NCBI GenBank assembly: GCA_016187335.1
Contig: JACPJW010000001.1
Coordinates: 192,001-256,000, forward strand
Source: Candidatus Aenigmatarchaeota archaeon
GTDB taxonomy: Archaea; Aenigmatarchaeota; Aenigmatarchaeia; GW2011-AR5
Direction: 5' to 3'
DNA: 64,000 bases
Positions 16,206 through 51,342 of this stretch are shown here, in pieces. The notes below the pieces were generated by a model, which was not told where the DNA came from, searched no databases, and worked only from the letters and a program-made list of their open reading frames with translations. Numbering within the stretch: position 1 is the stretch's first letter; every line of letters begins with the position of its first letter. Both the position numbers and the translations under genes were made by a program.

Positions 16206-16263
16206 TGCACATCGCCGTTGTCTTGCAGTTGAGGGTTAGCGCATGTTTTCGCGATTTTGTGCC
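16206..16263 (-). other. 3' arm of the pre-23S processing stem (pairs with 22381-22440)
   Basis: ttttgtgcc/ggcacaaaa, gcgca/tgcgc, ttgcag/ctgcaa, cgccgt/acggcg complementarity. Confidence 0.7.
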
Positions 16264-16679
16264 TTAGGAAAATTAAAGGCTAGCATTGGCGTAGGAGAGC
16301 GTGGGCTGAATAGCTCGCCGAAGCTTGCTACTTACACCCCGCTTCCATACCTGGTCGTCTTGCCAGTGCCGACTGCCTATTTTCGAGAGCGGCTTGGGGC
16401 TTAGATGCTTTCAGCCCTTATCCGCGTATGGCGTAGCTACCCGGCAATGCCTTGTCAGACAACCGGTACACCAGAGGCCACGGAAGGATGTTCCTTTCGT
16501 ACTTATCCTTCCTTTCTCTCAGGCAAAAGCACCTCCAGCAGATATAGACCAAACTGGCTCACACCGTTCTGAACCCAGCTAACGTGCCCTTTTAATCTGT
16601 GAACTCCAGCACCCTTGGCGGCTGCTGCACCGCCAGGAGAGGACGAGCCGACAGCGACGCCGCAACGCGCGGGGTCGAT

Positions 16680-16763
16680 TTGTTCTCTGGATTCTGCGAT
16701 CTAAGTTTGACTACCTCAGGCTATTCCAGCTGAGAATATGTAGACAATGTCGCAGATCCGGAT
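16680..16763 (-). other. 23S BHB intron, 84 nt (~Ec 2477/2478)
   Basis: Central helix GUUC/GAAC with 3-nt bulges. Confidence 0.85.
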
Positions 16764-16791
16764 AAGAACTCTCACCCGCCACGACACCATT

Positions 16792-16891
16792 ATAGGGTAA
16801 AGTAAACCTATAGCTAGTTGCTATCTAAATCTAACTAAATCTAATTTGTTAGCAGACCCAGACTGCGACTTAGCTTCCCGGCTTACTTCAT
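16792..16891 (-). other. 23S BHB intron, 100 nt (Ec U2449/A2450)
   Basis: GGGG/CCCU helix plus outer stem UGAAGUAA/UUACUUUA. Confidence 0.85.
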
Positions 16892-17722
16892 ATCCCCGGG
16901 GTAGCTTTTTGAGACCGAAGTGCTCATAATCTGAAGCCTTTCGAGCTTCATTGCGTTCAGCAACCCAAAATTAGCATGAAATTTTCTGACCATCTCCTCG
17001 CCGTAAATAGCGAAGGAGTAATTCGATATTGAAGAGCATTTTATTTCAAGCCCTTCAAGAACCGAAATTATGAACCTCAATGAACTCTCGTCTTTCTGGG
17101 TGAAAGTTATCCTCGCCCGCTTGTTCTTGACGTTTGCGGAAGGAACATGGCCTTCCGCGTCGAAGAATCCGGCAATATAGGACTTCTGGATTTCTATATC
17201 CGAAGCCCTGATTATCTCCGGAACCGACTTGTGAAGTTTCCCGTCAACCATCATACTGATCATGTAGTATAACGGCTTGGACGAGATGTCAAGGTACTTT
17301 TCACCTATATGCTTCTGGTACCTTACGTGCGGGGTCACTTCGAAAATCCGCTGGAATATATCGCGCAGACTTTCGACCCAAGTTGAGTTTGCAGAATCAT
17401 AAATCCGCACCCAGTGCTTTCCTTTCGAGCGAATCAAGGAACCGTCCCGCATTGCGCCTAGAAGATATGCCAATTGCAGTGTTAGTTCTTCTGGCACTTT
17501 AACTCGTGTATATGCTGAACCGGTTCCTGATTTGAGGTGCGTTACAGAACCAATAATTTCAGGATATTTCTCCGCCAGAAAGGAAAGCGGGAAGGAATTC
17601 AGTCTTTTCCACTTCCTTATCTTGCTGCTTTCTATGCGAATTTCCATCAATCTTGGTTCCAGGATCTCTGCTCTTACCGTAGTGCCGGTTTCCAGAATTC
17701 CCTGGAGTAACTTAAATTTCAT
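16883..17722 (-). CDS. Two-motif LAGLIDADG homing endonuclease
   Basis: LAYLLGAMRDGSL and YIAGFFDAEGHV. Confidence 0.9.
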   Translation of the reverse strand: MKFKLLQGILETGTTVRAEILEPRLMEIRIESSKIRKWKRLNSFPLSFLAEKYPEIIGSVTHLKSGTGSAYTRVKVPEELTLQLAYLLGAMRDGSLIRSKGKHWVRIYDSANSTWVESLRDIFQRIFEVTPHVRYQKHIGEKYLDISSKPLYYMISMMVDGKLHKSVPEIIRASDIEIQKSYIAGFFDAEGHVPSANVKNKRARITFTQKDESSLRFIISVLEGLEIKCSSISNYSFAIYGEEMVRKFHANFGLLNAMKLERLQIMSTSVSKSYPGDMK

Positions 17723-17783
17723 TGAGGCTTTTTGGTCAGAGTAGAATATAAGGATTGCTGAACTGGGGTGAACACTTCGCGTT
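16908..17783 (-). mobile_element. 23S BHB intron, 876 nt, with homing endonuclease gene (~Ec 2433/2434)
   Basis: UGAG/CUCA helix, CGAAGUG/CACUUCG stem. Confidence 0.9.
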
Positions 17784-17907
17784 TTCTCATGTCACAGCCA
17801 GCCATCCAGGCCAAGCTGCGTATCGCTAGCTCACGCTTTCACGGTTGGACACCATTCTGTTAGGAGTCCAATCAATGCAGCTTTTGCGCTTGCACTCTAC
17901 CCTCGAT

Positions 17908-17953
17908 AATCAGGAAACTTTCCGTTTTGATGAAACTTTTCTGAAAAGTTTCT
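17908..17953 (-). other. 23S BHB micro-intron, 46 nt (family-1 hairpin)
   Basis: UCAG/CUGA helix, GAAAC/GUUUC outer stem. Confidence 0.85.
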
Positions 17954-17993
17954 TTCTGACCGAGGTGAGCTGCACTTAGAGGGCGTCTGATAT

Positions 17994-18036
17994 TAAGTCT
18001 AGCAGAGCGTTCTTCATTGCTAGCCCTGCAGGATAT
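17994..18036 (-). other. 23S micro-intron, ~43 nt (helix 81 region)
   Basis: Insertion between duplicated GATAT; relaxed BHB; boundaries approximate. Confidence 0.7.
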
Positions 18037-18344
18037 CTTTTCAGACGCGTACCGCCCCAGCCAAACTGCCCATCTGTTACTGTCCCATAGCTATGCTATG
18101 GTAAGCAGTAAAGTCGAAAAAGGTCGGTGTTACACTTTCGACTCCACGCCACCTTACAGCAGCGCTTCGACGTCTCCCGACTACTCTATACAATCCCGAC
18201 TTTACCACAACAACAGACTGCAGTAAAGCTCCACGGGGTCTACTCTTCCCACTGGAGGTCCCTGGCCTAATCACCAGGACAATAGTTTCGCCGAGTTCCA
18301 GCCCGGGACAGCGACCACCTCGTTAATCTATCATGCAGGCCAAC

Positions 18345-18472
18345 GTTTACAGCCCCTTCCTGATATGTTCTTGCGCAGAAAGCGTAAGCTTTCTGGCATC
18401 TCAAAGAGCTTTGCTCTTTGCAGATTTCCGCAAGCGCTTTTCTTCCAAGAAAAGGGCTTCAAGAAAGGGCTT
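18345..18472 (-). other. 23S intron, 128 nt (helix 71 loop)
   Basis: AGCCC/GGGCU outer stem; contains family-2 and tri-loop hairpins. Confidence 0.8.
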
Positions 18473-18490
18473 ATTTAATTGGCAAGGGAT

Positions 18491-18563
18491 TTAGCGAACC
18501 CTCTGTCGCCATGACAGAACGTTGAGTCTCACGCAAGCGCCCTTTGCAGTGCAAAAGGGGTTT
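18491..18563 (-). other. 23S BHB intron, 73 nt (~Ec 1936)
   Basis: AGCG/CGCU helix, AACCC/GGGUU stem. Confidence 0.85.
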
Positions 18564-18585
18564 TACGCTACCTTAAGACCCTCAT

Positions 18586-18629
18586 CACCGACGAAGCACT
18601 GTCATCTGATCAGACGTGCTTCAGTCTAG
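18586..18629 (-). other. 23S micro-intron, ~44 nt (helix 69 loop)
   Basis: Insertion within the UAACUxUGA loop; boundaries +/-2 nt. Confidence 0.75.
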
Positions 18630-19218
18630 AGTTAGGGCCGGCCTACAGCGGGGCTTAGCCCGGTTGAAACCAGGTTTGACACACCACTAGTGGCCACGAC
18701 TCACTGACCATAGAAAGCCTTTCGACTTGTCGGTCAGTTACGTTTTTGTTAAACAGTCGGGTGGCCCTTGTCACTGCGACCTGCTTGTCCCCAAGCAGGC
18801 ATGCGTTCTACCGAAGATACCGCACTAATTTGCCGAATTCCCTGGGCTGGATTATCTCGAACACCTTCGCCTTCTCGGCGAGGGGCACCTGTGTCGGTTA
18901 TTGGTACGAGCAGCCCACACCGTAACCTGCCTGCTTTTTTAAGAGCTCCGGGAATCGCCCGAACTTCCCTAAAGGGAAGCCGTTCGCATCTTCCTCAGGT
19001 TCTCGCCATGATGACACTCCCCCGAGTTCAATGCTTAAGCATGGCGACGGCCATGCTCAGGATATCCCGAAGCGTTAGCGGCAGGATAAGTATCGGCTGG
19101 TTCCGGAATATTAACCGGATTTCCTTTCCCGCGCGTCTTCCTAAGAGCACGGTTAGGATCGACTGACCCCCAGAAGATAAACTTTACTGGGGAACCCTTG
19201 CCCCTCAGGTGGTAGGGA

Positions 19219-19542
19219 ATTGAGTGCAAGAAGAAGGTGAATTAGCGACTTTCACGAAGTGCTTTAATGAAATAAATACCTAATGTTAATCCGGATACAA
19301 GCTTCGCTGCACCGGTCCAAATAAAAGAAGGGTTACCGGTTGCTCGATAAGCCATAATATCGGTAGCTCCGTCTGCTAAAAGACTTACGCTACCGACTGG
19401 AATTCCTATAGCAGTAACGTATGGATTCATTTCCTGTGAAATTCTTTCAATTCTGTCTGGAGGTTTTTGAAATTCCATATGTCACTACTAATAGATGAGA
19501 ATTTAAAGCCTATCATTCGCTTTTTGGAGCTTCTTCCCGCAT
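19219..19542 (-). mobile_element. 23S intron, 324 nt, carrying a non-nuclease ORF
   Basis: Removal restores GGGCGAGAAUCCCUACC; near-BHB with UGC/GCA outer stem. Confidence 0.8.
19242..19478 (-). CDS. Intron-encoded 78-aa putative membrane peptide
   Basis: Two hydrophobic segments; TTTAAAT ~25 nt upstream of ATG. Confidence 0.65.
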   Translation of the reverse strand: MEFQKPPDRIERISQEMNPYVTAIGIPVGSVSLLADGATDIMAYRATGNPSFIWTGAAKLVSGLTLGIYFIKALRESR

Positions 19543-19729
19543 TTCTCGCCCTACTAATGCTACTCCCACCAGGATCCTCTTTGCTGCAAGGTCCACACTT
19601 CCTCACGGAAACGCTTCTGCCCTCGCAGCACGCCTCCTTACCACTTGCGATTGCTCACAAGTCCGCAGTATCGGTGGTTTCCTTAGCCCCGTCCATTTTC
19701 TCCGCCTTGACTCTCGATGGGTCCGCTAT

Positions 19730-19893
19730 TTCGCGGAAAGCCCCTTTTTCTTGTAAGAAAAAGTCCCTTGGGTTCAAAAAGAACTTTAACTCGCTTCGCT
19801 CGGATATTATTTTTAATAATATAGCGAGCATTAGCGAGCCTTGTGTCTTTCTTTTCCCAAGGGTTTTCTTTCTTCAGAAAGAAAAGGCTTTCT
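19730..19893 (-). other. 23S BHB intron, 164 nt (GTPase-associated centre, ~Ec 1095)
   Basis: CGCG/CGCG helix, GAAAG/CUUUC stem; nested hairpins. Confidence 0.85.
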
Positions 19894-20206
19894 TACGCGT
19901 TGTTTAAATGGTGGCTGCTTCTAAGCCAACATCCCCATTGTCTGAGAATCAGGACCAGATTCAGTGACACTTAGAAAACACTTTGGGACCTTAACTGCAG
20001 TCCGGGTTCGTTCCCTCTCGGATACCAGAATTACTCCGGCACCCTCACTCCCGCTCACGCGATAACGGATTCGGAGTTTGACAAGGCAGGTGGGGATCTC
20101 TCCCCTTGGCTGTCTAATCAGTGCTCTACCCCGTTATCTGCTAAGAGCGAGGCTGTCCTGAGAGACATTTCAGGAGGAACCAGCTATCACCAGATTCGAT
20201 TGGCTT

Positions 20207-20275
20207 TTGGTGTTCGCGAATAGCATACTGAATCTGCGAACAGCAAATTCAGAATAGCTTTAGCTATTCTCGAAT
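20207..20275 (-). other. 23S BHB intron, 69 nt
   Basis: GGUG/CACC helix, UUCG/CGAA stem. Confidence 0.85.
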
Positions 20276-20381
20276 TTCACCCCTAACCCCAGGTCACCCG
20301 AAGGGTTTGGACCACAACCGGTAACAGGCCTCCACCCGCCTTTCGGCAGGCTTCGCCTTGCCCAGGGCTAGATCATCTGGT

Positions 20382-21284
20382 CGCCCGGTCAGAGAATGAG
20401 TTTTATGAGGTTTGTATGAATATCAGATTTTGTTTTGCCCAATTCGCTTGGCTTTAAGCCATATGAATTGGCAGCGAATTTCAGAAGTTGTGATTTTGGA
20501 ATTCCCTTCCATAATCCATTTCCGCTAATTTTCACGCCTTCAACAAAGCCGATTTCCCTTTCAAATTTCTTTATGTTCTCAGGTTTTCTAAGCAACACTG
20601 CATCTTTCAGCATTGTTGGCTTGTACCCAAGTTTTTCAAGCAACCCGAAGTATTGTTTCCTAAGATTTGGATGTTCTGAATAAAGTTTTACGCATCTGTC
20701 GAAACGGAAACCGTATCTTGCCTTTCCGATATTGAAGATTACAGTTCCATCTCCGGTGAATGCGTATCTTAGAAATTGCTTTCCGAGTTCAGAGTTGCTT
20801 AAGATGAACTCCGGAATTATTGTTCCCGGATATTTGTTTTCTGCTTTGTTGTAGGCGAGCGTTCTGTAAGACGGCGAATAACTAATGAGCTCTGCGGCAG
20901 CCTTTCTGCTTATTCCACTCTTGACTTCCCATGAACCTTTGTAGATTCTTTTTCGAAGTTTAAGATGGAAAATCTCGAAGATGAGCCTTTCAAATTCCGC
21001 AACAAGTTCATTGGAGTTAGAAGTGAAAGAAATACTCCATAATCCCGATTTCTTGTTGCACCAAAGGCTGCCGTCTGTAATCAGAAGCCCTATTAGTTGA
21101 GCCATCTTGCCTTGTCTTTCATCAATCTCATTAATTTCGGTTTTGCCGAAATTTTGATTAATGAAATTTAATTTCATGCTTGTTATTAAGGCGAAGCGGG
21201 CTTATCTTGCTTTCGTGTCGAAGACCGAAAGAAAGAATATGTCCCGCTGAGCCAGATAACAAACCTCTAACTCACTCCCCGACT
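20382..21284 (-). mobile_element. 23S BHB intron, 903 nt, with homing endonuclease gene
   Basis: CCCG/CGGG helix, GUCGG/CUGAC stem. Confidence 0.9.
20389..21177 (-). CDS. Two-motif LAGLIDADG homing endonuclease
   Basis: LIGLLITDGSL and FLRYAFTGDGTV. Confidence 0.9.
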   Translation of the reverse strand: MKLNFINQNFGKTEINEIDERQGKMAQLIGLLITDGSLWCNKKSGLWSISFTSNSNELVAEFERLIFEIFHLKLRKRIYKGSWEVKSGISRKAAAELISYSPSYRTLAYNKAENKYPGTIIPEFILSNSELGKQFLRYAFTGDGTVIFNIGKARYGFRFDRCVKLYSEHPNLRKQYFGLLEKLGYKPTMLKDAVLLRKPENIKKFEREIGFVEGVKISGNGLWKGIPKSQLLKFAANSYGLKPSELGKTKSDIHTNLIKLIL

Positions 21285-22574
21285 TTCGGGTCTTATTCCA
21301 GTGACTTCCGCGCTTTCACACGGGGCGCCTCGCTGCCTGCGCGCGCTCGCTTTCGCTGCGGTTCCCTTAGTTAACCTTGCCACTAGAATAAACTCCCTGG
21401 CCCGTTTTTCAAAACGGACACCGCTTTTGTTTCTCTTGCGAGAACGTTAGGCGGCTAACTGTAGCTGCCAGGTTTCAGGTTCTTTTCAGCACCTATTACG
21501 GTTGCTTTTCAGCTTTCCGTCGCCGTACTAATGCGCTATCGGACTTGACGAATATTTAGGATTGGGTCTGAATGCGACCCGCGTTCCGACTCCAAATCCG
21601 AGGAATCGTACTCTGGATACCCGCCGTTGCACTTCCTGCCTTCCCTTACGCGGCTATCACGCTGTGTCGCGCCCCTTTCCAGGGGTCTTCGGGTCAGCAG
21701 GCAAGAGCAGGCACGGGTCCAAACACCACATTGCCCCGCACTCGTCGCGCAGGGCTTCGGTTTGTCCTGTTCCCTTTTCACTCGCCGTTACTGGGGGAAT
21801 CGAATTTCTTTCTTTTCCTGCCCTTACTAAAATGTTTTAATTTTGGGCGTTCGCCCTTCAGAACAGACTTCCGCATCTTTCAGATGCGGGATTTATCTCT
21901 GAAGTTGATGCCTATCGGCATTGGGCAATCTCCGGTTCAAAGGCTGCATGCGCCTACCCGGAGCTTATCGCAGCTTGCCACAACCTTCGTCGCATGTCAA
22001 GCCAGGCCATCCTCCTGACAGCTTGGGAGCTAGCTATCTTCTTTCCTAAGGCGTTCGCCGCTAACAAAGCTACACTTTAGGCATAGCTTTGCAAACGGCT
22101 AACTATTGCTCCAGCCTCGACCTGTGACTGCATCATATGCGTGAATAATCAGTATAATTATTTCGCTCTGCATTTCACCAATCAGCACGCTGACCGGCTC
22201 ATGAAATGAAAGGCAGACTCTGCTTTGAAACAAAATCCGCCGTTTTTATCAAATGGAAAGCCAAGTTCGCACGTTTTCCTGGATTGGCATGCAAACCTCT
22301 GATTTCCTTTCTGCTTTGGCAAACCGTTTTGGTACAACTTTTTTGAAAAGTTGTTCAGAGAAAGAACAGCATAGCGTCACGGCACAAAACGAGATAATTC
22401 TGCGCCACCTACACTGCAACCCGCACGCCCTGTCACGGCGCACAAAGCCACTCTGAACAGCTTCGGTTAACCAATCAACATGAATGTAAATTTTGAACTT
22501 TTCCCTTTTGAAGTTCTACAAATAGCGCAGGATTCCTGACCCTGACACGGTAACCTACATTATACAATATCAAA

Positions 22575-47189: not shown

Positions 47190-47794
47190 GGGCTGCATCT
47201 TGTATATCCTCCGCTACCGAAAAGGGTTTTAATCCTGTTTTTCAAGAAAGTTGCATGAAAAAGCAGGTTCTGAAGCGCATGCCTGAAGAAACGCAGAAAG
47301 TGCATGCCGCTGATTTTGAAAAGGAAAAGAAGAAACTGGAACAGAGCTTCAAAAAGAAAGAAATGCCCTTCCGCCTGTTCTGGGTGAAGTGAAAATATCT
47401 ACTATTTCTGTTAAAACCTGTAGATAGCTTCGGCTAAATCGTATCGATAAAAAAATCCAGCTTTCTTTGCGTTTTGGAAAAAATAGCGCGCAAAGGTACA
47501 GGTAGTTCCGGGTTACGTCCCGGAACTCACGGAGCCGCAGCTCCGATGAATTGGCATTCTATCTCATGGCCCTCTTTTGATGAAACTTTTTTGAAAAGTT
47601 TCAGAGGAAAGCACACTGACTGTCGCAGAACCCTTTCGGATTCTTTTGATAAAACTTTTCTTGAAAGAAAAGTTTTTAGGAGGTGATCCAGCCGCACGTT
47701 CCCGTACGGCTACCTTGTTACGACTTAGCCCTCCTTGCAGACAATTGATTCGACTTATTCAGCATAAGCCTCACCAAAAGTCCACTCGGATGGC

Positions 47795-47826
<32 letters not shown>

Positions 47827-47840
47827 CATTCAGCGAAAGA

Positions 47841-48030
47841 TTCCACGATTATGAGATCATCATAGTGCTGCTTCTACTCGACCAAAGACATCCGCCCATA
47901 CTTTTAATCACCAGACCGCTACGGATTTCTTTCCGTAGACGCTTTCTTTTTAAGAAAGGGTCTTCATAGTCAAGCACTTCTTCTGTCTTTGATTTTGTAG
48001 CGCCAAAAAATCATTTGGATCTCACATCCA
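47841..48030 (-). other. 16S intron, 190 nt (~Ec 1360s)
   Basis: Relaxed BHB UCAU/GUGG; contains a family-2 hairpin. Confidence 0.8.
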
Positions 48031-48389
48031 TGATGACCTTCGCTTACTAGGGATTCCGGCTTCACGTGGGCGAATTGCAGCCCACGATCTGAACTAGGCG
48101 CCGGTTTGAGAGATTGGCTTCACCTCACGGTGTTGCATCCCATTGTCCGACGCATTGTAGGCCGCGTGTAGCCCCGGAAATTTAGGCCATACTGACCTGC
48201 CGTAGACCGCTCCTTCCTCTGGCTTAGCGCCAGCGGTCCCGCTAAAGTGCATGCCCTGCGTACAGGACATTCGCAACTAGCGGCACGGGTCTCACTCGTT
48301 TCGTGACTTAACACGACACTTCACAGCACGAGCTGACGACGGCCATGCAGCACTTCTCAGTTTGTTAGGTAACCCCTTTAGAGTGACCC

Positions 48390-48962
48390 TCATTCTACTG
48401 TCTTCCCGGGTGAGGTCTCCAGAGAGGAATCCTCATATTTCCAAAGAATGCGTTTGCCTTCATTCTTTCTTGCCACACTACGCGCGGATTCAAGGTCGCG
48501 CAATGTTTCCCTTATTGTGCTTGGCATCAATCTTAATCCAAGGCACAATTCTCCTATGCTCCACCACTTATCATTTTTTCTGATCAACGCAACTATCTTC
48601 TCTTTCGTTGAAGCTTTGTTGCGCATGAAGCCGCCTTTCATCCCTTCTCTTTCCAAGAGAAGCTTCGCCCATTGATTCTTAATCGGTTCCGCAAATTCCC
48701 CTGCAATGGAATAAATCTCCCTGAAAGCATTCCTATGCAGCTTGAAGCCGATGTTTTCTCTTTTGACGAACTTTTTGCTTGCCCAGCCATGCGCTTTGCA
48801 GACCTCAAAAATAGTGTTAAGCTGATTTCTGTTTCTGCTTGACTGAACAAGCACAGGCGACTCTTCAGCTATAAAGCTGAATTCAAACTCGATTAGTGGA
48901 AGGAGTATAGAAGCTGTAAGTTTTTGCCTTTCTTTGCTCGCTCGTAAACACTTATCATCCAT
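48390..48962 (-). CDS. Degenerate single-motif LAGLIDADG-like domain plus winged HTH
   Basis: LTASILLPLIEFEFSF in the motif position; C-terminal SIGELCLGLRLMPSTIRETLRDLE. Confidence 0.55.
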   Translation of the reverse strand: MDDKCLRASKERQKLTASILLPLIEFEFSFIAEESPVLVQSSRNRNQLNTIFEVCKAHGWASKKFVKRENIGFKLHRNAFREIYSIAGEFAEPIKNQWAKLLLEREGMKGGFMRNKASTKEKIVALIRKNDKWWSIGELCLGLRLMPSTIRETLRDLESARSVARKNEGKRILWKYEDSSLETSPGKTVE

Positions 48963-49015
48963 AGTACTGTATACTTTGGATGATTTATTGGTTTCCGTAC
49001 TCGAGTATTCCTCTT
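48417..49015 (-). mobile_element. 16S BHB intron, 599 nt (~Ec 978), with ORF
   Basis: CCAG/CUGG helix, AGAG/CUCU stem. Confidence 0.9.
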
Positions 49016-49035
49016 TCCTGGCGTTGAATCCAATT

Positions 49036-49075
49036 TTCGGCCCAAGCCAATGATATACGTTTCACTGAACTCGGT
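49036..49075 (-). other. 16S BHB micro-intron, 40 nt (~Ec 957)
   Basis: CGGU/GCCG helix. Confidence 0.8.
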
Positions 49076-49114
49076 AAACCGCAGCCTCCACCCCTGGTAG
49101 TGCTCCCCCGCCAA

Positions 49115-49726
49115 TTAGGGGAAAGTAATCCCATCATTTAGCAGCTTCAATCTGAGCTGCTTATCCTTGTGCCAACTTCCGATGTTTTTGCAGAAGTATA
49201 GAAGATTGTTCTTCCTTGTCAGCCTGAATTCCCAGACATTACCGCAAAAGGTAATGTTTGTTGGCTGGCAACTTTGATCAATCAAAACCTGTCTAATGAA
49301 TTCCAAAGATTCCCTGTTTTTCTGGCTGAACGAGATGTATTTCTGTTTCGCTGTATCTGGTTTCTTTGGAAGTCCTCCTTCTGCATCAAAGAATCCTTTC
49401 AAATAGTGAATTTGAATTTTCACTTTCTGTTCCTTTATGCATTTTGGAGTATCCCAGAATTCCTGCGGTGTTTCGAAATCGGATATATCGAGAATTTTTT
49501 CAACATAGCTTCTTCCGTTAATCCTCAGTATTTCCGTTCCGTTTGCATGTTTTGTTATGGTGCCGCGAGCTTCAAACTCTTTATGGAAAAGAGTTTGCAA
49601 AAGGCGTAACCATGATGTCTCTCTTTGTGCTATTTTAATTTCGTAGTTTTTTCCTTTCCTGACATCTATGGATGCGTCTCTCATAGCACCTAACAGATAC
49701 GCAAGTTCTGGGCTGACAGGCTTCAC
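49115..49726 (-). CDS. Two-motif LAGLIDADG homing endonuclease
   Basis: LAYLLGAMRDASI and YLKGFFDAEGGL. Confidence 0.9.
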   Translation of the reverse strand: MKPVSPELAYLLGAMRDASIDVRKGKNYEIKIAQRETSWLRLLQTLFHKEFEARGTITKHANGTEILRINGRSYVEKILDISDFETPQEFWDTPKCIKEQKVKIQIHYLKGFFDAEGGLPKKPDTAKQKYISFSQKNRESLEFIRQVLIDQSCQPTNITFCGNVWEFRLTRKNNLLYFCKNIGSWHKDKQLRLKLLNDGITFP

Positions 49727-49778
49727 TCTATAACTTTGGCAGCAGGGATATTTAAGTGTGGTATCGGGGTTACTTTCT
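49115..49778 (-). mobile_element. 16S BHB intron, 664 nt (~Ec 919), with homing endonuclease gene
   Basis: AGGG/CCCU helix, GAAAGUAA/UUACUUUC stem. Confidence 0.9.
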
Positions 49779-49908
49779 TTCCCTTAAGTTTCAGCCTTGC
49801 GGCCGTAATCCCCAGGCGGCCCGTTTAACGCCTTCGCTTCGGCACCACGGATCCACGAAGGATTCGTGACACCAAACGGGCAACGTTTACAGCTAGGACT
49901 ACCGGGGT

Positions 49909-49990
49909 CTTTAGGACCCTTTTGCGATTTTATTCGCGGTAGCGTGATTTCCGTAGACGCTTTTACGCGCTTGCATGCGTAAAAGGGTCT
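49909..49990 (-). other. 16S BHB intron, 82 nt (Ec 793/794)
   Basis: UUAG/CUAA helix, GACCC/GGGUC stem. Confidence 0.88.
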
Positions 49991-50001
49991 ATCTAATCCC
50001 G

Positions 50002-50035
50002 AATGAACTCGACTAAGATTTTCGTCTTAGTTCGA
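50002..50035 (-). other. 16S micro-intron, ~34 nt (~Ec 781)
   Basis: Hairpin insertion; imperfect BHB. Confidence 0.75.
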
Positions 50036-50090
50036 TTCGCTCCCCTAGCTTTCGTCCCTCACCGTCGGACCCGTTCCAGCCAAGCGCCTT

Positions 50091-50134
50091 ACGTGGAAAC
50101 TTTTCCGTTTTGATTGAATTTTTTGAAAAGTTCA
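50091..50134 (-). other. 16S BHB micro-intron, 44 nt (~Ec 722)
   Basis: GUGG/CCAC helix; family-1 hairpin. Confidence 0.88.
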
Positions 50135-50338
50135 CGCCACAGGTGGTCCCCTACGGATTAAAAGATTTTACCCTTACCCGTAGAGTACCCTTGGCCTCTC
50201 CCGGTCCCAAGCCCGATAGTATCTCCAGCAAGCCTTACAGTTTGCTGCAAGATTTCACCAAAGACACATCGAGCCGGCTACGGACGCTTCAGGCCCAATA
50301 AACGTGACTACCCCTCGTGGCGCGGTTATTACCGCGGC

Positions 50339-50389
50339 ATCCAGATCCTTTTCCGTCAACGCTTTTGCGTCTTCAGACGTAAAAGGGTT
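50339..50389 (-). other. 16S BHB micro-intron, 51 nt (530 loop, ~Ec 523)
   Basis: CCAG/CUGG helix; family-2 hairpin. Confidence 0.88.
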
Positions 50390-50428
50390 GGCTGGCAACC
50401 GTCTTGCCCACCACTTATTCCTCCACCT

Positions 50429-50483
50429 ATGTAATCCTTTCTTCCGTTTCTTTCGCAAGCGTTTTCTTTTCGAAAGAAAAGGC
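50429..50483 (-). other. 16S helix-17 insertion, probable intron, ~55 nt
   Basis: GUAA/UUAC helix; family-2 hairpin. Confidence 0.65.
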
Positions 50484-50550
50484 TTTTACAGTGGAGAAAA
50501 GACAGCGCTAAGCGCTGCCACTCAGGGTTCCCTTGTCAGGCTTTCACCCA

Positions 50551-50600
50551 GTTTGCGAACTTTTCAGTTCCGTTTTGATGGAACTTTTCTGAAAAGTTCC
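50551..50600 (-). other. 16S BHB micro-intron, 50 nt (~Ec 374)
   Basis: UUGC/GCAA helix, GAAC/GUUC stem; family-1 hairpin. Confidence 0.88.
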
Positions 50601-50606
50601 TTGCAA

Positions 50607-50639
<33 letters not shown>

Positions 50640-51342
50640 CGTTCATGTCTCAGAACGCATCTCCGGGCTATCGCTCTCACGACCCGTACGGATTACAGCC
50701 TTGTTGAGCAATTATCTCAACAACAAGCTAATCCGCCGCAGTCCCATCGTTCAGTGCATTGCTGCTTTCAGCGAAGATGCCTTCCAGCAATTATCGCCTA
50801 TCGGGTATTATTCCCACTTTCGCAGGATTATCCCCGTCTGAACGGCAGGTTAACTACGTGTTACTGAGCAGTGCGACGAGGTCTTGCACCTCACGTCTCG
50901 CATGGCTTAGCCGAACCCTGATAAAGGTAGTCTCCGGCGGGATCAACCGGAATTGTGCGGGAAAACACAAACCCTTGTGGTTATGTGTCCCTACCATTTG
51001 ATAGAGTCTTGCCTACCCATACCTTTGTTCACTTGTAAGCATGCTTACCAGCTCATATTTATCATGCAGCGGAAGTGTTTCTTCACGAAAAAGGCTGTTG
51101 CCTTAAAATCCGAAACGACGCCTTGCTGTCATGAATAATCATTTCAGTTTTGACTCATCCGCTTTTTACAGCAGAATGTGCCGCGTAATTATTATCCAGT
51201 CAAAAGCGTTCGTAAGAACTGCTTCGCTTTAACGAGCAAGCCAGCTAGCTAGAAGTATAGTTGCCAAACTATGCCCGTCTCAATACTTTCAAGGCACGAT
51301 TCTTAGAACCGCACCACACCATCAATAAATAAAGAAGGGAAC

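What the first reader, a model, noticed from the sequence alone, without database searches (positions are those of the whole stretch)
16278..22034. 23S rRNA split by about 12 introns, with a 16-nt exon carrying PTC nucleotides
Seen: subtracting 12 inserts (43-903 nt) gives ~2903 nt, and most have clean 4-bp BHB helices. Introns sit in the PTC, helices 69-71, the GTPase centre and near the P-loop. Exon 16892-16907 (AAGCUACCCCGGGGAU, ~Ec 2434-2449) is 16 nt, and ~18-22 nt exons separate the helix 69-71 introns. Established: archaeal rRNA introns are cut by the tRNA splicing endonuclease and usually number only a few per gene. This density is exceptional to my knowledge.
Basis: partly seen in the sequence, partly recalled or inferred. 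Interest (0 to 1): 0.75.

Follow-up and report, generated by a model that had tools for sequence, protein, structure and literature searches.

The report
23S rRNA gene with twelve introns
The only 23S ribosomal RNA gene of this tiny groundwater archaeon (Aenigmatarchaeota) is half intron: twelve tRNA-type introns, some only 16 to 20 bases apart, split it at its most important sites. Relatives carry up to sixteen, so this is an extreme lineage-wide case of a known kind of intron, not a new mechanism.

Summary
Observation confirmed in detail. Rfam places one archaeal LSU rRNA on the minus strand at 16275-22038: 5,764 nt for a 2,987-position model. Alignment to near intron-free relatives finds 12 inserts of 43-903 nt, 2,854 nt in all. 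Removing them leaves a colinear 2,910-nt 23S.

All 12 junctions fit bulge-helix-bulge (BHB) geometry in one fixed register. The central helix is 4/4 bp in 8 and 3/4 in 4. Eleven of 12 pass a criterion met by 1.1% of random site pairs and by none in shifted registers. E. coli sites are 676, 782, 1095, 1287, 1917, 1937, 1955, 2272, 2310, 2433, 2449 and 2477. Internal exons of 16, 18, 20, 28 and 38 nt are real.

Across relatives, exon and intron halves of the central helix change together, so the motif is under selection. An alpha-type EndA with a Nanoarchaeum-like loop insertion and RtcB are encoded. No group I/II signal was found. Public assemblies from nine runs in all reproduce introns 1, 2, 10 and 11 at 100% identity.

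"Exceptional" holds against the literature I could search, but not within the lineage: relatives have 1-16 inserts at about 40 sites. The scan has noted twin introns and micro-exons in other genomes.

The parts
16275..22038 (-). Single-copy archaeal 23S (LSU) rRNA gene, 5,764 nt, 13 exons and 12 introns; spliced length 2,910 nt
   Evidence: Rfam RF02540, 1886 bits, model 1-2987. Only one LSU match in the 1.01-Mb genome. Colinear with relatives and E. coli after intron removal.
20382..21284 (-). Intron 1, 903 nt, after Ec 676; relaxed BHB (H 4 bp CCCG/CGGG, bulges AA^A and CG^a, inner helix at least 12 bp, no outer helix)
   Evidence: Homologous intron at the same site in relative L015, HEG 60% aa identity. 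Present at 100% identity in Logan contigs L050 and L052.
20389..21177 (-). 262-aa double-motif LAGLIDADG homing endonuclease ORF, wholly inside intron 1
   Evidence: Pfam LAGLIDADG_3, 1.1e-9. Motifs LIGLLITDGS and LRYAFTGDG.
20207..20275 (-). Intron 2, 69 nt, after Ec 782 (H35 loop region); H GGUG/CACC, bulges AA^A and AA^a
   Evidence: Same site occupied in 6 relatives with an identical H and a covarying inner helix.
19730..19893 (-). Intron 3, 164 nt, after Ec 1095 (GTPase-associated centre, H44 loop); H CGCG/CGCG
   Evidence: 82% identical to the Ec1095 intron of L013. Compensatory CGUG/CAUG in L014.
19219..19542 (-). Intron 4, 324 nt, after Ec 1287; H 3/4 (CGAG/CUCA), outer helix 6 bp, inner at least 12 bp; contains a 78-aa ORF (19242-19478, minus strand) with no family match
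   Evidence: L016 has the compensatory pair CGAA/UUCG.
18584..18627 (-). Intron 5, 44 nt, after Ec 1917 (helix 69 loop); the native H69 stem supplies the 6-bp outer helix
   Evidence: Same site occupied in L005, L008 and L014.
18564..18583 (-). 20-nt exon (Ec 1918-1937) between introns 5 and 6
18491..18563 (-). Intron 6, 73 nt, after Ec 1937; H AGCG/CGCU, bulges UA^A and AA^a, no outer helix
18473..18490 (-). 18-nt exon (Ec 1938-1955) between introns 6 and 7
18345..18472 (-). Intron 7, 128 nt, after Ec 1955 (helix 71 loop); H 3/4, outer helix 5 bp, inner at least 12 bp; carries a repeat with 11 further copies in the genome
17992..18034 (-). Intron 8, 43 nt, after Ec 2272 (H81 loop); outer helix 8 bp
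   Evidence: Exon and intron H halves covary across relatives: AAAG/CUUA, AAUU/GGUU, AAAA/UUUU.
17954..17991 (-). 38-nt exon between introns 8 and 9
17908..17953 (-). Intron 9, 46 nt, after Ec 2310; textbook hBHBh' (outer 6 bp, H 4 bp, inner 10 bp); its body is a hairpin repeat with 44 other copies in the genome
   Evidence: The unconstrained MFE fold recovers the BHB.
16908..17783 (-). Intron 10, 876 nt, after Ec 2433; H UGAG/CUCA, both bulges AA^A, no outer helix; the only one of the 12 sites not seen in the 15 relatives
   Evidence: 100% identical in six Logan assemblies.
16883..17722 (-). 279-aa double-motif LAGLIDADG ORF; starts in intron 10, reads through the 16-nt exon and stops 9 nt into intron 11; the intron has no in-frame stop in 292 codons
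   Evidence: Pfam hit. Motifs LAYLLGAMRDG and IAGFFDAEG, and the stop-free frame.
16892..16907 (-). 16-nt micro-exon AAGCUACCCCGGGGAU (Ec 2434-2449), ending one base before A2450/A2451 of the peptidyl-transferase centre
16792..16891 (-). Intron 11, 100 nt, after Ec 2449; H GGGG/CCCU, bulges AU^A and AU^a, inner helix 11 bp, no outer helix
   Evidence: Site occupied in 4 relatives by introns of 171-709 nt.
16764..16791 (-). 28-nt exon (Ec 2450-2477) carrying A2451
16680..16763 (-). Intron 12, 84 nt, after Ec 2477 (helix 89 loop); H GUUC/GAAC
   Evidence: The commonest site: occupied in 10 of 15 relatives by the site matrix. Nine of these are listed, all with H 4/4.
22029..22051 (-). 5' half of the 23S processing stem, a canonical BHB: outer CCUUAGGAAA, H GAAG, bulge AU^A (22037-22035), inner GCUAGC
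   Evidence: Fold and manual reading.
16262..16284 (-). 3' half of the processing stem: inner GCUAGC, H CUUU, bulge AA^U (16274-16272), outer UUUCCUAAGG

Best explanation
This is the organism's single functional 23S rRNA gene, colonised by 12 archaeal BHB introns.

Proposed mechanism. In the primary transcript each intron-exon junction folds into a bulge-helix-bulge motif. Four exon bases just upstream of the 5' splice site pair with the four intron bases just upstream of the 3' splice site. A 3-nt bulge lies 3' of each strand, and an intron-internal stem closes the motif. The tRNA-splicing endonuclease (EndA) cuts between bulge bases 2 and 3 on both sides. RtcB then joins the exons, and probably circularises the introns, to give a contiguous 23S of about 2.9 kb. 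With the BHB in the flanking processing stem, this makes 26 cuts and at least 12 ligations per molecule.

Two structural classes.
- Seven introns sit where exon-exon pairing (a native rRNA stem at the hairpin-loop sites) gives an outer helix. It is 5-8 bp at Ec 1287, 1917, 1955, 2272 and 2310, and only 1-2 bp at 1095 and 2477.
- Five lie in junction strands (676, 782, 1937, 2433, 2449). They have no outer helix, giving relaxed HBh' motifs.

Intron content. Two introns are homing elements with intact double-motif LAGLIDADG genes. At least two short ones are copies of a genome-wide hairpin repeat.

Shown versus inferred. Shown: gene structure, motif, covariation, the enzymes, and independent assembly. 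Inferred: actual cleavage, ligation and their order.
For: - Removing the inserts at BHB-predicted cut sites restores gap-free colinearity with relatives and E. coli at all 12 junctions.
- BHB geometry holds in one fixed register at 12 of 12 junctions. Eleven pass a criterion met by 1.1% of random pairs, and none pass in shifted registers.
- Unconstrained MFE folds of six of the nine short introns folded (2, 3, 6, 7, 9, 11) recover the bulges.
- There are compensatory exon/intron changes in the central helix. At site 2272: AAAG/CUUA, AAUU/GGUU, AAAA/UUUU. At 1095: CGCG/CGCG versus CGUG/CAUG. At 1287 and 1955 likewise. Inner helices are freely covarying at shared sites across 15 relatives.
- The first intron base is A in 12 of 12 here and in 71 of 91 relatives' inserts, against 35% A content.
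- The introns break universally conserved core elements in the only LSU gene of the genome.
- A 202-aa EndA with N- and C-terminal domains is closest to M. jannaschii alpha4 EndA. It carries the 6-residue loop insertion also present in N. equitans alpha. PMC5829648 links this DPANN loop to broad substrate range.
- RtcB is present at 528 bits.
- The 23S processing stem holds a canonical BHB.
- No group I/II match at E<=5.
- Logan contigs from nine runs in all are 100% identical across introns 1, 2, 10 and 11.
Against:
- Five motifs lack an outer helix and four have a mismatch in the central helix. Whether this lineage's EndA cuts them is untested.
- A 16-nt exon needs two ligations and is held in its BHB by only 4 bp.
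- Independent assembly support covers introns 1, 2, 10 and 11 only.
- The genome is 91% complete, so a second intron-poor LSU copy cannot be fully excluded.
Confidence: 0.85

Rival explanations
1. EndA cuts the BHB sites, but some or all exons are not religated. The mature 23S would then be a non-covalent set of fragments held together by base pairing and proteins, as in organisms with fragmented rRNA.
For: The same BHB evidence as above speaks only to cleavage, not ligation. Very short exons of 16-20 nt and five motifs without an outer helix could make ligation inefficient.
Against: RtcB is encoded, and exon ligation is the established fate of BHB-cut RNAs. Free 16-20-nt pieces carrying PTC and H69-71 bases would be hard to retain. 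Intron-less relatives have these segments contiguous.
Confidence: 0.07
2. The inserts are retained in mature rRNA as expansion segments.
For: None specific. It is only that no RNA data were available.
Against: The inserts fall inside the H69 loop, the H44 loop, next to A2450/A2451 and in the H89 loop. They range up to 903 nt and encode homing endonucleases. They are present or absent among close relatives with exact BHB boundaries.
Confidence: 0.02
3. The long ORF-bearing inserts (903, 876 and perhaps 324 nt) are self-splicing group I or II introns rather than BHB introns.
For: Group I introns with LAGLIDADG genes occur in DPANN LSU genes (PMC6125680). Ec 2449 is a classic group I site (my own knowledge).
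Against: No group I/II family match at E<=5 across the gene. All three have in-register BHB motifs with long closing stems. Their sites (676, 1287, 2433) are not among the archaeal group I sites listed in PMC6125680. Caveat: the general Rfam group I model is less sensitive than the subtype models used in that paper.
Confidence: 0.02
4. This is an assembly artefact or a decaying pseudogene.
For: The sequence comes from a metagenome-assembled genome. Three Logan contigs end exactly at the intron 12 boundary.
Against: Contigs from nine separately assembled runs in all are 100% identical across four introns and the micro-exon. The exons are fully conserved and colinear. It is the only LSU gene found. 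Relatives assembled by other groups show the same sites.
Confidence: 0.02

Closest known systems
BHB introns of crenarchaeal rRNA genes (Thermoproteales/Desulfurococcales 16S and 23S; Jay & Inskeep 2015, PMC4496867)
   Same: - The bulge-helix-bulge motif lies at the exon-intron junctions and is cut by the tRNA-splicing endonuclease.
- There is a mix of LAGLIDADG-encoding long introns and short hairpin introns (under 50 nt).
- Insertion is in conserved loops and junctions.
- Distribution among relatives is patchy.
   Different: - Scale: 12 introns in one 23S gene, about 10 more in the 16S, and up to 16 in a relative. About 40 LSU sites occur within one order, against 13 loci known across all archaeal 16S genes in that survey.
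- Host: a mesophilic-type, 1-Mb DPANN genome rather than a hyperthermophilic crenarchaeon.
- Motif: 5 of 12 are relaxed, with no outer helix.
Pyrobaculum oguniense 16S intron pair Pog.S1205 (hairpin) / Pog.S1213 (I-PogI), 8 nt apart, spread by co-conversion (as summarised in PMC4496867)
   Same: An endonuclease-encoding BHB intron lies next to an ORF-less BHB intron with a micro-exon between them. Intron 10 (HEG, Ec 2433) and intron 11 (100 nt, Ec 2449) have this layout.
   Different: - The gap here is 16 nt.
- The pair lies in the 23S peptidyl-transferase ring.
- The HEG frame runs through the micro-exon into the next intron.
- Co-conversion is not tested.
Multi-intron and non-canonical-position tRNA genes with relaxed HBh'/hBH motifs in archaea whose EndA carries an extra loop (PMC5829648)
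   Same: Relaxed motifs and a high intron load go together with an EndA that carries a loop insertion. This genome's EndA has the insertion also seen in N. equitans alpha.
   Different: The substrate here is rRNA. The subunit architecture of this EndA (alpha4 or other) and its specificity are not established.
Group I introns in DPANN and other archaeal LSU genes (Nawrocki et al. 2018, PMC6125680)
   Same: Same host gene and superphylum, often with LAGLIDADG ORFs. That paper notes co-occurrence with BHB introns in one gene.
   Different: No group I signature here. The sites differ from the archaeal group I sites listed (1923, 1931, 2500, 2593). BHB motifs are present at all junctions.

Membership tests
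Archaeal BHB (EndA-spliced) rRNA intron | The insert interrupts a conserved rRNA, and its precise removal restores the uninterrupted sequence | tested here: met
   All 12 junctions are gap-free against relatives and E. coli after removal.
Archaeal BHB (EndA-spliced) rRNA intron | Two 3-nt bulges on opposite strands separated by a 4-bp helix, with cut sites in register with the exon boundaries (or the relaxed HBh'/hBH form) | tested here: met
   H is 4/4 in 8 introns and 3/4 in 4. Eleven of 12 pass against a 1.1% random rate, and none pass in shifted registers. Five lack the outer helix, which is the relaxed form.
Archaeal BHB (EndA-spliced) rRNA intron | The motif is conserved by covariation in homologous introns | tested here: met
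   Compensatory exon/intron changes occur at sites 1095, 1287, 1955 and 2272. Inner helices covary at all shared sites.
Archaeal BHB (EndA-spliced) rRNA intron | The host encodes the splicing endonuclease and the RtcB ligase | tested here: met
   EndA, PF01974 plus PF02778, 202 aa. RtcB at 528 bits.
Archaeal BHB (EndA-spliced) rRNA intron | Excision and exon ligation are seen in RNA (spliced junctions, circular introns) | not testable with these tools
Group I intron | Conserved catalytic core detectable by covariance model | tested here: not met
   No Intron_gpI match at E<=5 across 16275-22038. Subtype-specific models were not available.
Group II intron | Domain V/VI ribozyme signature or a reverse-transcriptase ORF | tested here: not met
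   No Rfam group II match. The ORFs are LAGLIDADG, not RT.
LAGLIDADG homing endonuclease (ORFs of introns 1 and 10) | Two LAGLIDADG motifs with the acidic residue, in a protein of about 200-300 aa inside a mobile intron | tested here: met
   Pfam LAGLIDADG_3 at 1.1e-9 and 8.2e-7. Both motifs were read in each protein. Nuclease activity and target site were not tested.

The most novel reading that the evidence does not exclude
In Aenigmatarchaeota, rRNA maturation has become obligatorily coupled to mass BHB splicing: at least 13 EndA/RtcB events per 23S and about 10 per 16S. The introns are then not neutral parasites but act as built-in folding or assembly timers. While unspliced, they keep H69, the GTPase centre and the PTC ring from forming. 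Alternatively, some junctions are never religated, so the ribosome runs on a multi-piece 23S that includes 16-20-nt RNAs.
Probability: 0.1. Interest if true: 0.8.

Novelty: new member of a known kind. Interest (0 to 1): 0.5.

Why it matters
- **Intron load.** Half of the only 23S gene, and over half of the 16S, of a 1-Mb genome is intron. This overturns the picture of archaeal rRNA introns as a few elements in hyperthermophilic Crenarchaeota.
- **A natural experiment.** One order with about 40 LSU insertion sites and 1-16 introns per gene offers a dense record of BHB intron gain, loss and site-hopping. It includes hairpin cassettes shared with tRNA introns.
- **Constraints on the enzymes.** EndA must accept relaxed motifs, and RtcB must join 16-20-nt exons.
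- **Practical consequences.** Such genes break rRNA primers, rRNA predictors and MAG binning.
- **Limit of the claim.** The mechanism itself is the established one.

Tried and rejected
- **Phylum survey.** A phylum-wide LSU survey failed on the server. A class-level sample of 101 genomes was used instead.
- **Group I/II introns.** Rejected after a permissive Rfam scan; only chance-level hits to unrelated families.
- **Misassembly or pseudogene.** Rejected on the Logan contigs from nine separate runs and on exon conservation.
- **My first BHB model.** It placed the bulges 5' of the central-helix strands. I discarded it on reasoning from tRNA geometry. The correct register, with bulges 3' of each strand and cuts after bulge base 2, then fitted all 12 junctions.
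- **Intron 7.** A 126-nt boundary left 2 extra bases against relatives. The 128-nt boundary fits.
- **Intron 10.** The first automated scan missed its BHB. It was found by folding the junctions.
- **The 78-aa ORF in intron 4.** It has no Pfam match and is not on record elsewhere, so no function is assigned.
- **Literature.** Searches found no report of more than a handful of BHB introns in one archaeal rRNA gene. This means only "not found in the library searched".

Full report
**What is there.** Rfam finds one archaeal LSU rRNA on the minus strand at 16275-22038. It spans 5,764 nt for a 2,987-position model and matches end to end (1886 bits). It is the only LSU match in the 1.01-Mb, two-contig genome, which is 91% complete. 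Global alignment to three near intron-free LSU genes from the same order gives 12 large inserts. Refining them by splice-motif register gives lengths of 903, 69, 164, 324, 44, 73, 128, 43, 46, 876, 100 and 84 nt. These sum to 2,854 nt. It aligns without gaps at every junction to relatives and to E. coli rrlB.

**Sites and exons.** In E. coli numbering the introns follow positions 676, 782, 1095, 1287, 1917, 1937, 1955, 2272, 2310, 2433, 2449 and 2477. Internal exons of 20, 18, 38, 16 and 28 nt result. The 16-nt exon is 16892-16907, AAGCUACCCCGGGGAU, Ec 2434-2449.

**Is it more than chance?** I scored each junction against the fixed geometry of the archaeal bulge-helix-bulge motif:
- the four exon bases before the 5' bulge pair with the four intron bases before the 3' bulge;
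- each bulge is 3 nt and is cut after its second base;
- an intron-internal helix lies on the inside and an exon-exon helix on the outside.

The central helix is 4/4 bp in eight introns and 3/4 in four. Eleven of 12 pass a criterion (H>=3, flanking pairs>=4) that 1.1% of random site pairs in the same gene pass. None pass when the register is slid by 1 to 6 nt, or when only the 3' site is moved. Unconstrained MFE folds of six of the nine short introns folded (2, 3, 6, 7, 9, 11) recover the two bulges. The first intron base is A in all 12.

**Two structural classes.**
- At seven sites exon-exon pairing gives an outer helix. It is 5-8 bp at Ec 1287, 1917 (H69), 1955 (H71), 2272 and 2310, where a native rRNA stem closes the motif. 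It is only 1-2 bp at 1095 and 2477.
- Five introns sit in junction strands (676, 782, 1937, 2433, 2449). They have no outer helix, which is the relaxed HBh' form.

**Comparative evidence.** Fifteen LSU genes from the same order carry 1-16 inserts of at least 25 nt: 16 in L016, 13 in L015 and 12 in L014. Most are BHB-supported, at roughly 40 distinct sites. Eleven of the window's 12 sites are occupied in at least one relative. Only 2433 is private.

At shared sites the intron bodies differ in length (44-453 nt at site 2477) and sequence, but the motif is kept. Where the exon half of the central helix changes, the intron half changes with it:
- site 2272: AAAG/CUUA, AAUU/GGUU, AAAA/UUUU;
- site 1095: CGCG/CGCG versus CGUG/CAUG;
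- site 1287: CGAG/CUCA versus CGAA/UUCG;
- site 1955: UUAA/GUAA versus CUAA/GUAG.

Inner helices covary freely. This is selection on the splice structure, and it is the strongest available substitute for RNA data. Intron 1 is homologous to the Ec676 intron of L015 (endonuclease 60% identical). Intron 3 is homologous to the Ec1095 intron of L013 (82%). Pieces of introns 3 and 7 also match introns at other sites in relatives. Introns 9 and 7 carry a hairpin repeat with 44 and 11 further copies in the genome. This agrees with earlier notes on this genome.

A class-level sample of 101 genomes, 60 of them with an LSU match, shows full-length LSU spans up to 6.7 kb. About a dozen exceed 4.5 kb.

**Machinery.**
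- One EndA gene of 202 aa has N-terminal and catalytic domains. Its best PDB matches are M. jannaschii alpha4 EndA and the N. equitans alpha subunit. It carries a 6-residue insertion before the catalytic His region that M. jannaschii lacks and N. equitans has. PMC5829648 associates this DPANN loop with broad substrate range and heavy tRNA gene disruption.
- RtcB is present.
- The 23S flanks form a textbook processing-stem BHB: outer 10 bp, H GAAG/CUUU, bulges AU^A and AA^U, inner GCUAGC/GCUAGC.

The same enzyme would therefore make 26 cuts per 23S transcript.

**Rivals.**
- Group I/II introns: a permissive Rfam scan of the gene gives nothing but chance-level hits to unrelated families. The sites differ from the archaeal group I sites of PMC6125680.
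- Misassembly: Logan contigs from nine SRA runs in all are 100% identical over q61-2057 (exon 1 to exon 3, with introns 1 and 2). They are also identical over q4152-5275 (exon, intron 10, 16-nt exon, intron 11, exon).
- Retention as expansion segments: implausible given the positions and the presence/absence pattern.
- Cleavage without ligation: cannot be excluded without RNA, and I give it 7%.

**Comparison with the known.** The kind is established. BHB introns in crenarchaeal 16S and 23S rRNA have LAGLIDADG-bearing and short hairpin forms. Pairs of introns 7-8 nt apart spread by co-conversion (PMC4496867). The differences here are scale and host. In six literature searches I found no report of more than a few BHB introns in one archaeal rRNA gene. 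This is a statement about the library searched.

The lineage is Aenigmatarchaeota. A 26-nt string from this gene's PTC region occurs on 16 contigs of the 185,579-species genome set. Twelve are titled Candidatus Aenigmatarchaeota, three are untitled archaeal MAGs, and one sits in a bacterial bin.

**Verdict.** This is a new, extreme member of a known kind and a lineage-wide trait, not a one-off. The scan has noted related twin-intron and micro-exon cases in other genomes.

Noticed in passing
window 47678-50953 (minus strand): The 16S rRNA gene spans 3,276 nt for a 1,478-position model. It carries about 10 BHB-bounded inserts of 34-664 nt, most with a 4/4 central helix. It lies about 25 kb from the 23S gene, so the two rRNA genes are unlinked.
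   Followed up: partly
window 16764-16791 and about 16640-16680 (exons, Ec 2450-2506): The peptidyl-transferase ring departs from the Rfam archaeal consensus and from E. coli at normally conserved positions: C2452U, A2453G, A2497G, C2499G and A2503C. The first four are shared by both relatives tabulated (L003, L002); the U2452/G2453 string is also in L004. A2503C is shared by L003 only. The 26-nt string around it occurs on only 16 contigs among 185,579 species genomes; 12 are titled Aenigmatarchaeota, three are unnamed archaeal MAGs and one sits in a bacterial bin. This may bear on antibiotic sensitivity or PTC chemistry.
   Followed up: partly
window 16883-17783 (minus strand): Intron 10 is exactly 292 codons with no in-frame stop. 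On DNA its LAGLIDADG ORF reads through the 16-nt exon and stops 9 nt into intron 11. On a circularised intron the frame would be endless.
   Followed up: partly
window 19242-19478 (minus strand), inside intron 4: A 78-aa ORF with no Pfam match and no identical protein on record elsewhere. Coding status is unknown.
   Followed up: partly
window 16764 (q 5275), ends of L023, L024 and L026: Three of six independent Logan contigs stop exactly at the last exon base before intron 12. This suggests an assembly-graph branch there, from intron 12 presence/absence in the population or from a repeat.
   Followed up: no
L051:1145-1260: One Logan contig follows this gene through intron 1. Inside exon 2 it then switches to a diverged 23S exon preceded by a different short insert. 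It is probably a co-occurring relative joined in assembly.
   Followed up: partly
window 17908-17953 (intron 9) and 18345-18472 (intron 7): The bodies of these introns are copies of dispersed hairpin repeats, with 44 and 11 other hits in the genome. Pieces of introns 3 and 7 match relatives' introns at different 23S sites. This implies cassettes that move between sites.
   Followed up: partly
L071 (QMLL01000069.1): A contig carrying the Aenigmatarchaeota-type 23S string is deposited in a MAG titled Deltaproteobacteria. This is likely a binning error.
   Followed up: no
L016 (G020:C8:220-6073) and L015 (G004:C8:64223-70930): Relatives with even more interrupted 23S genes: 16 and 13 inserts, with a gene span up to 6,708 nt.
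   Followed up: partly
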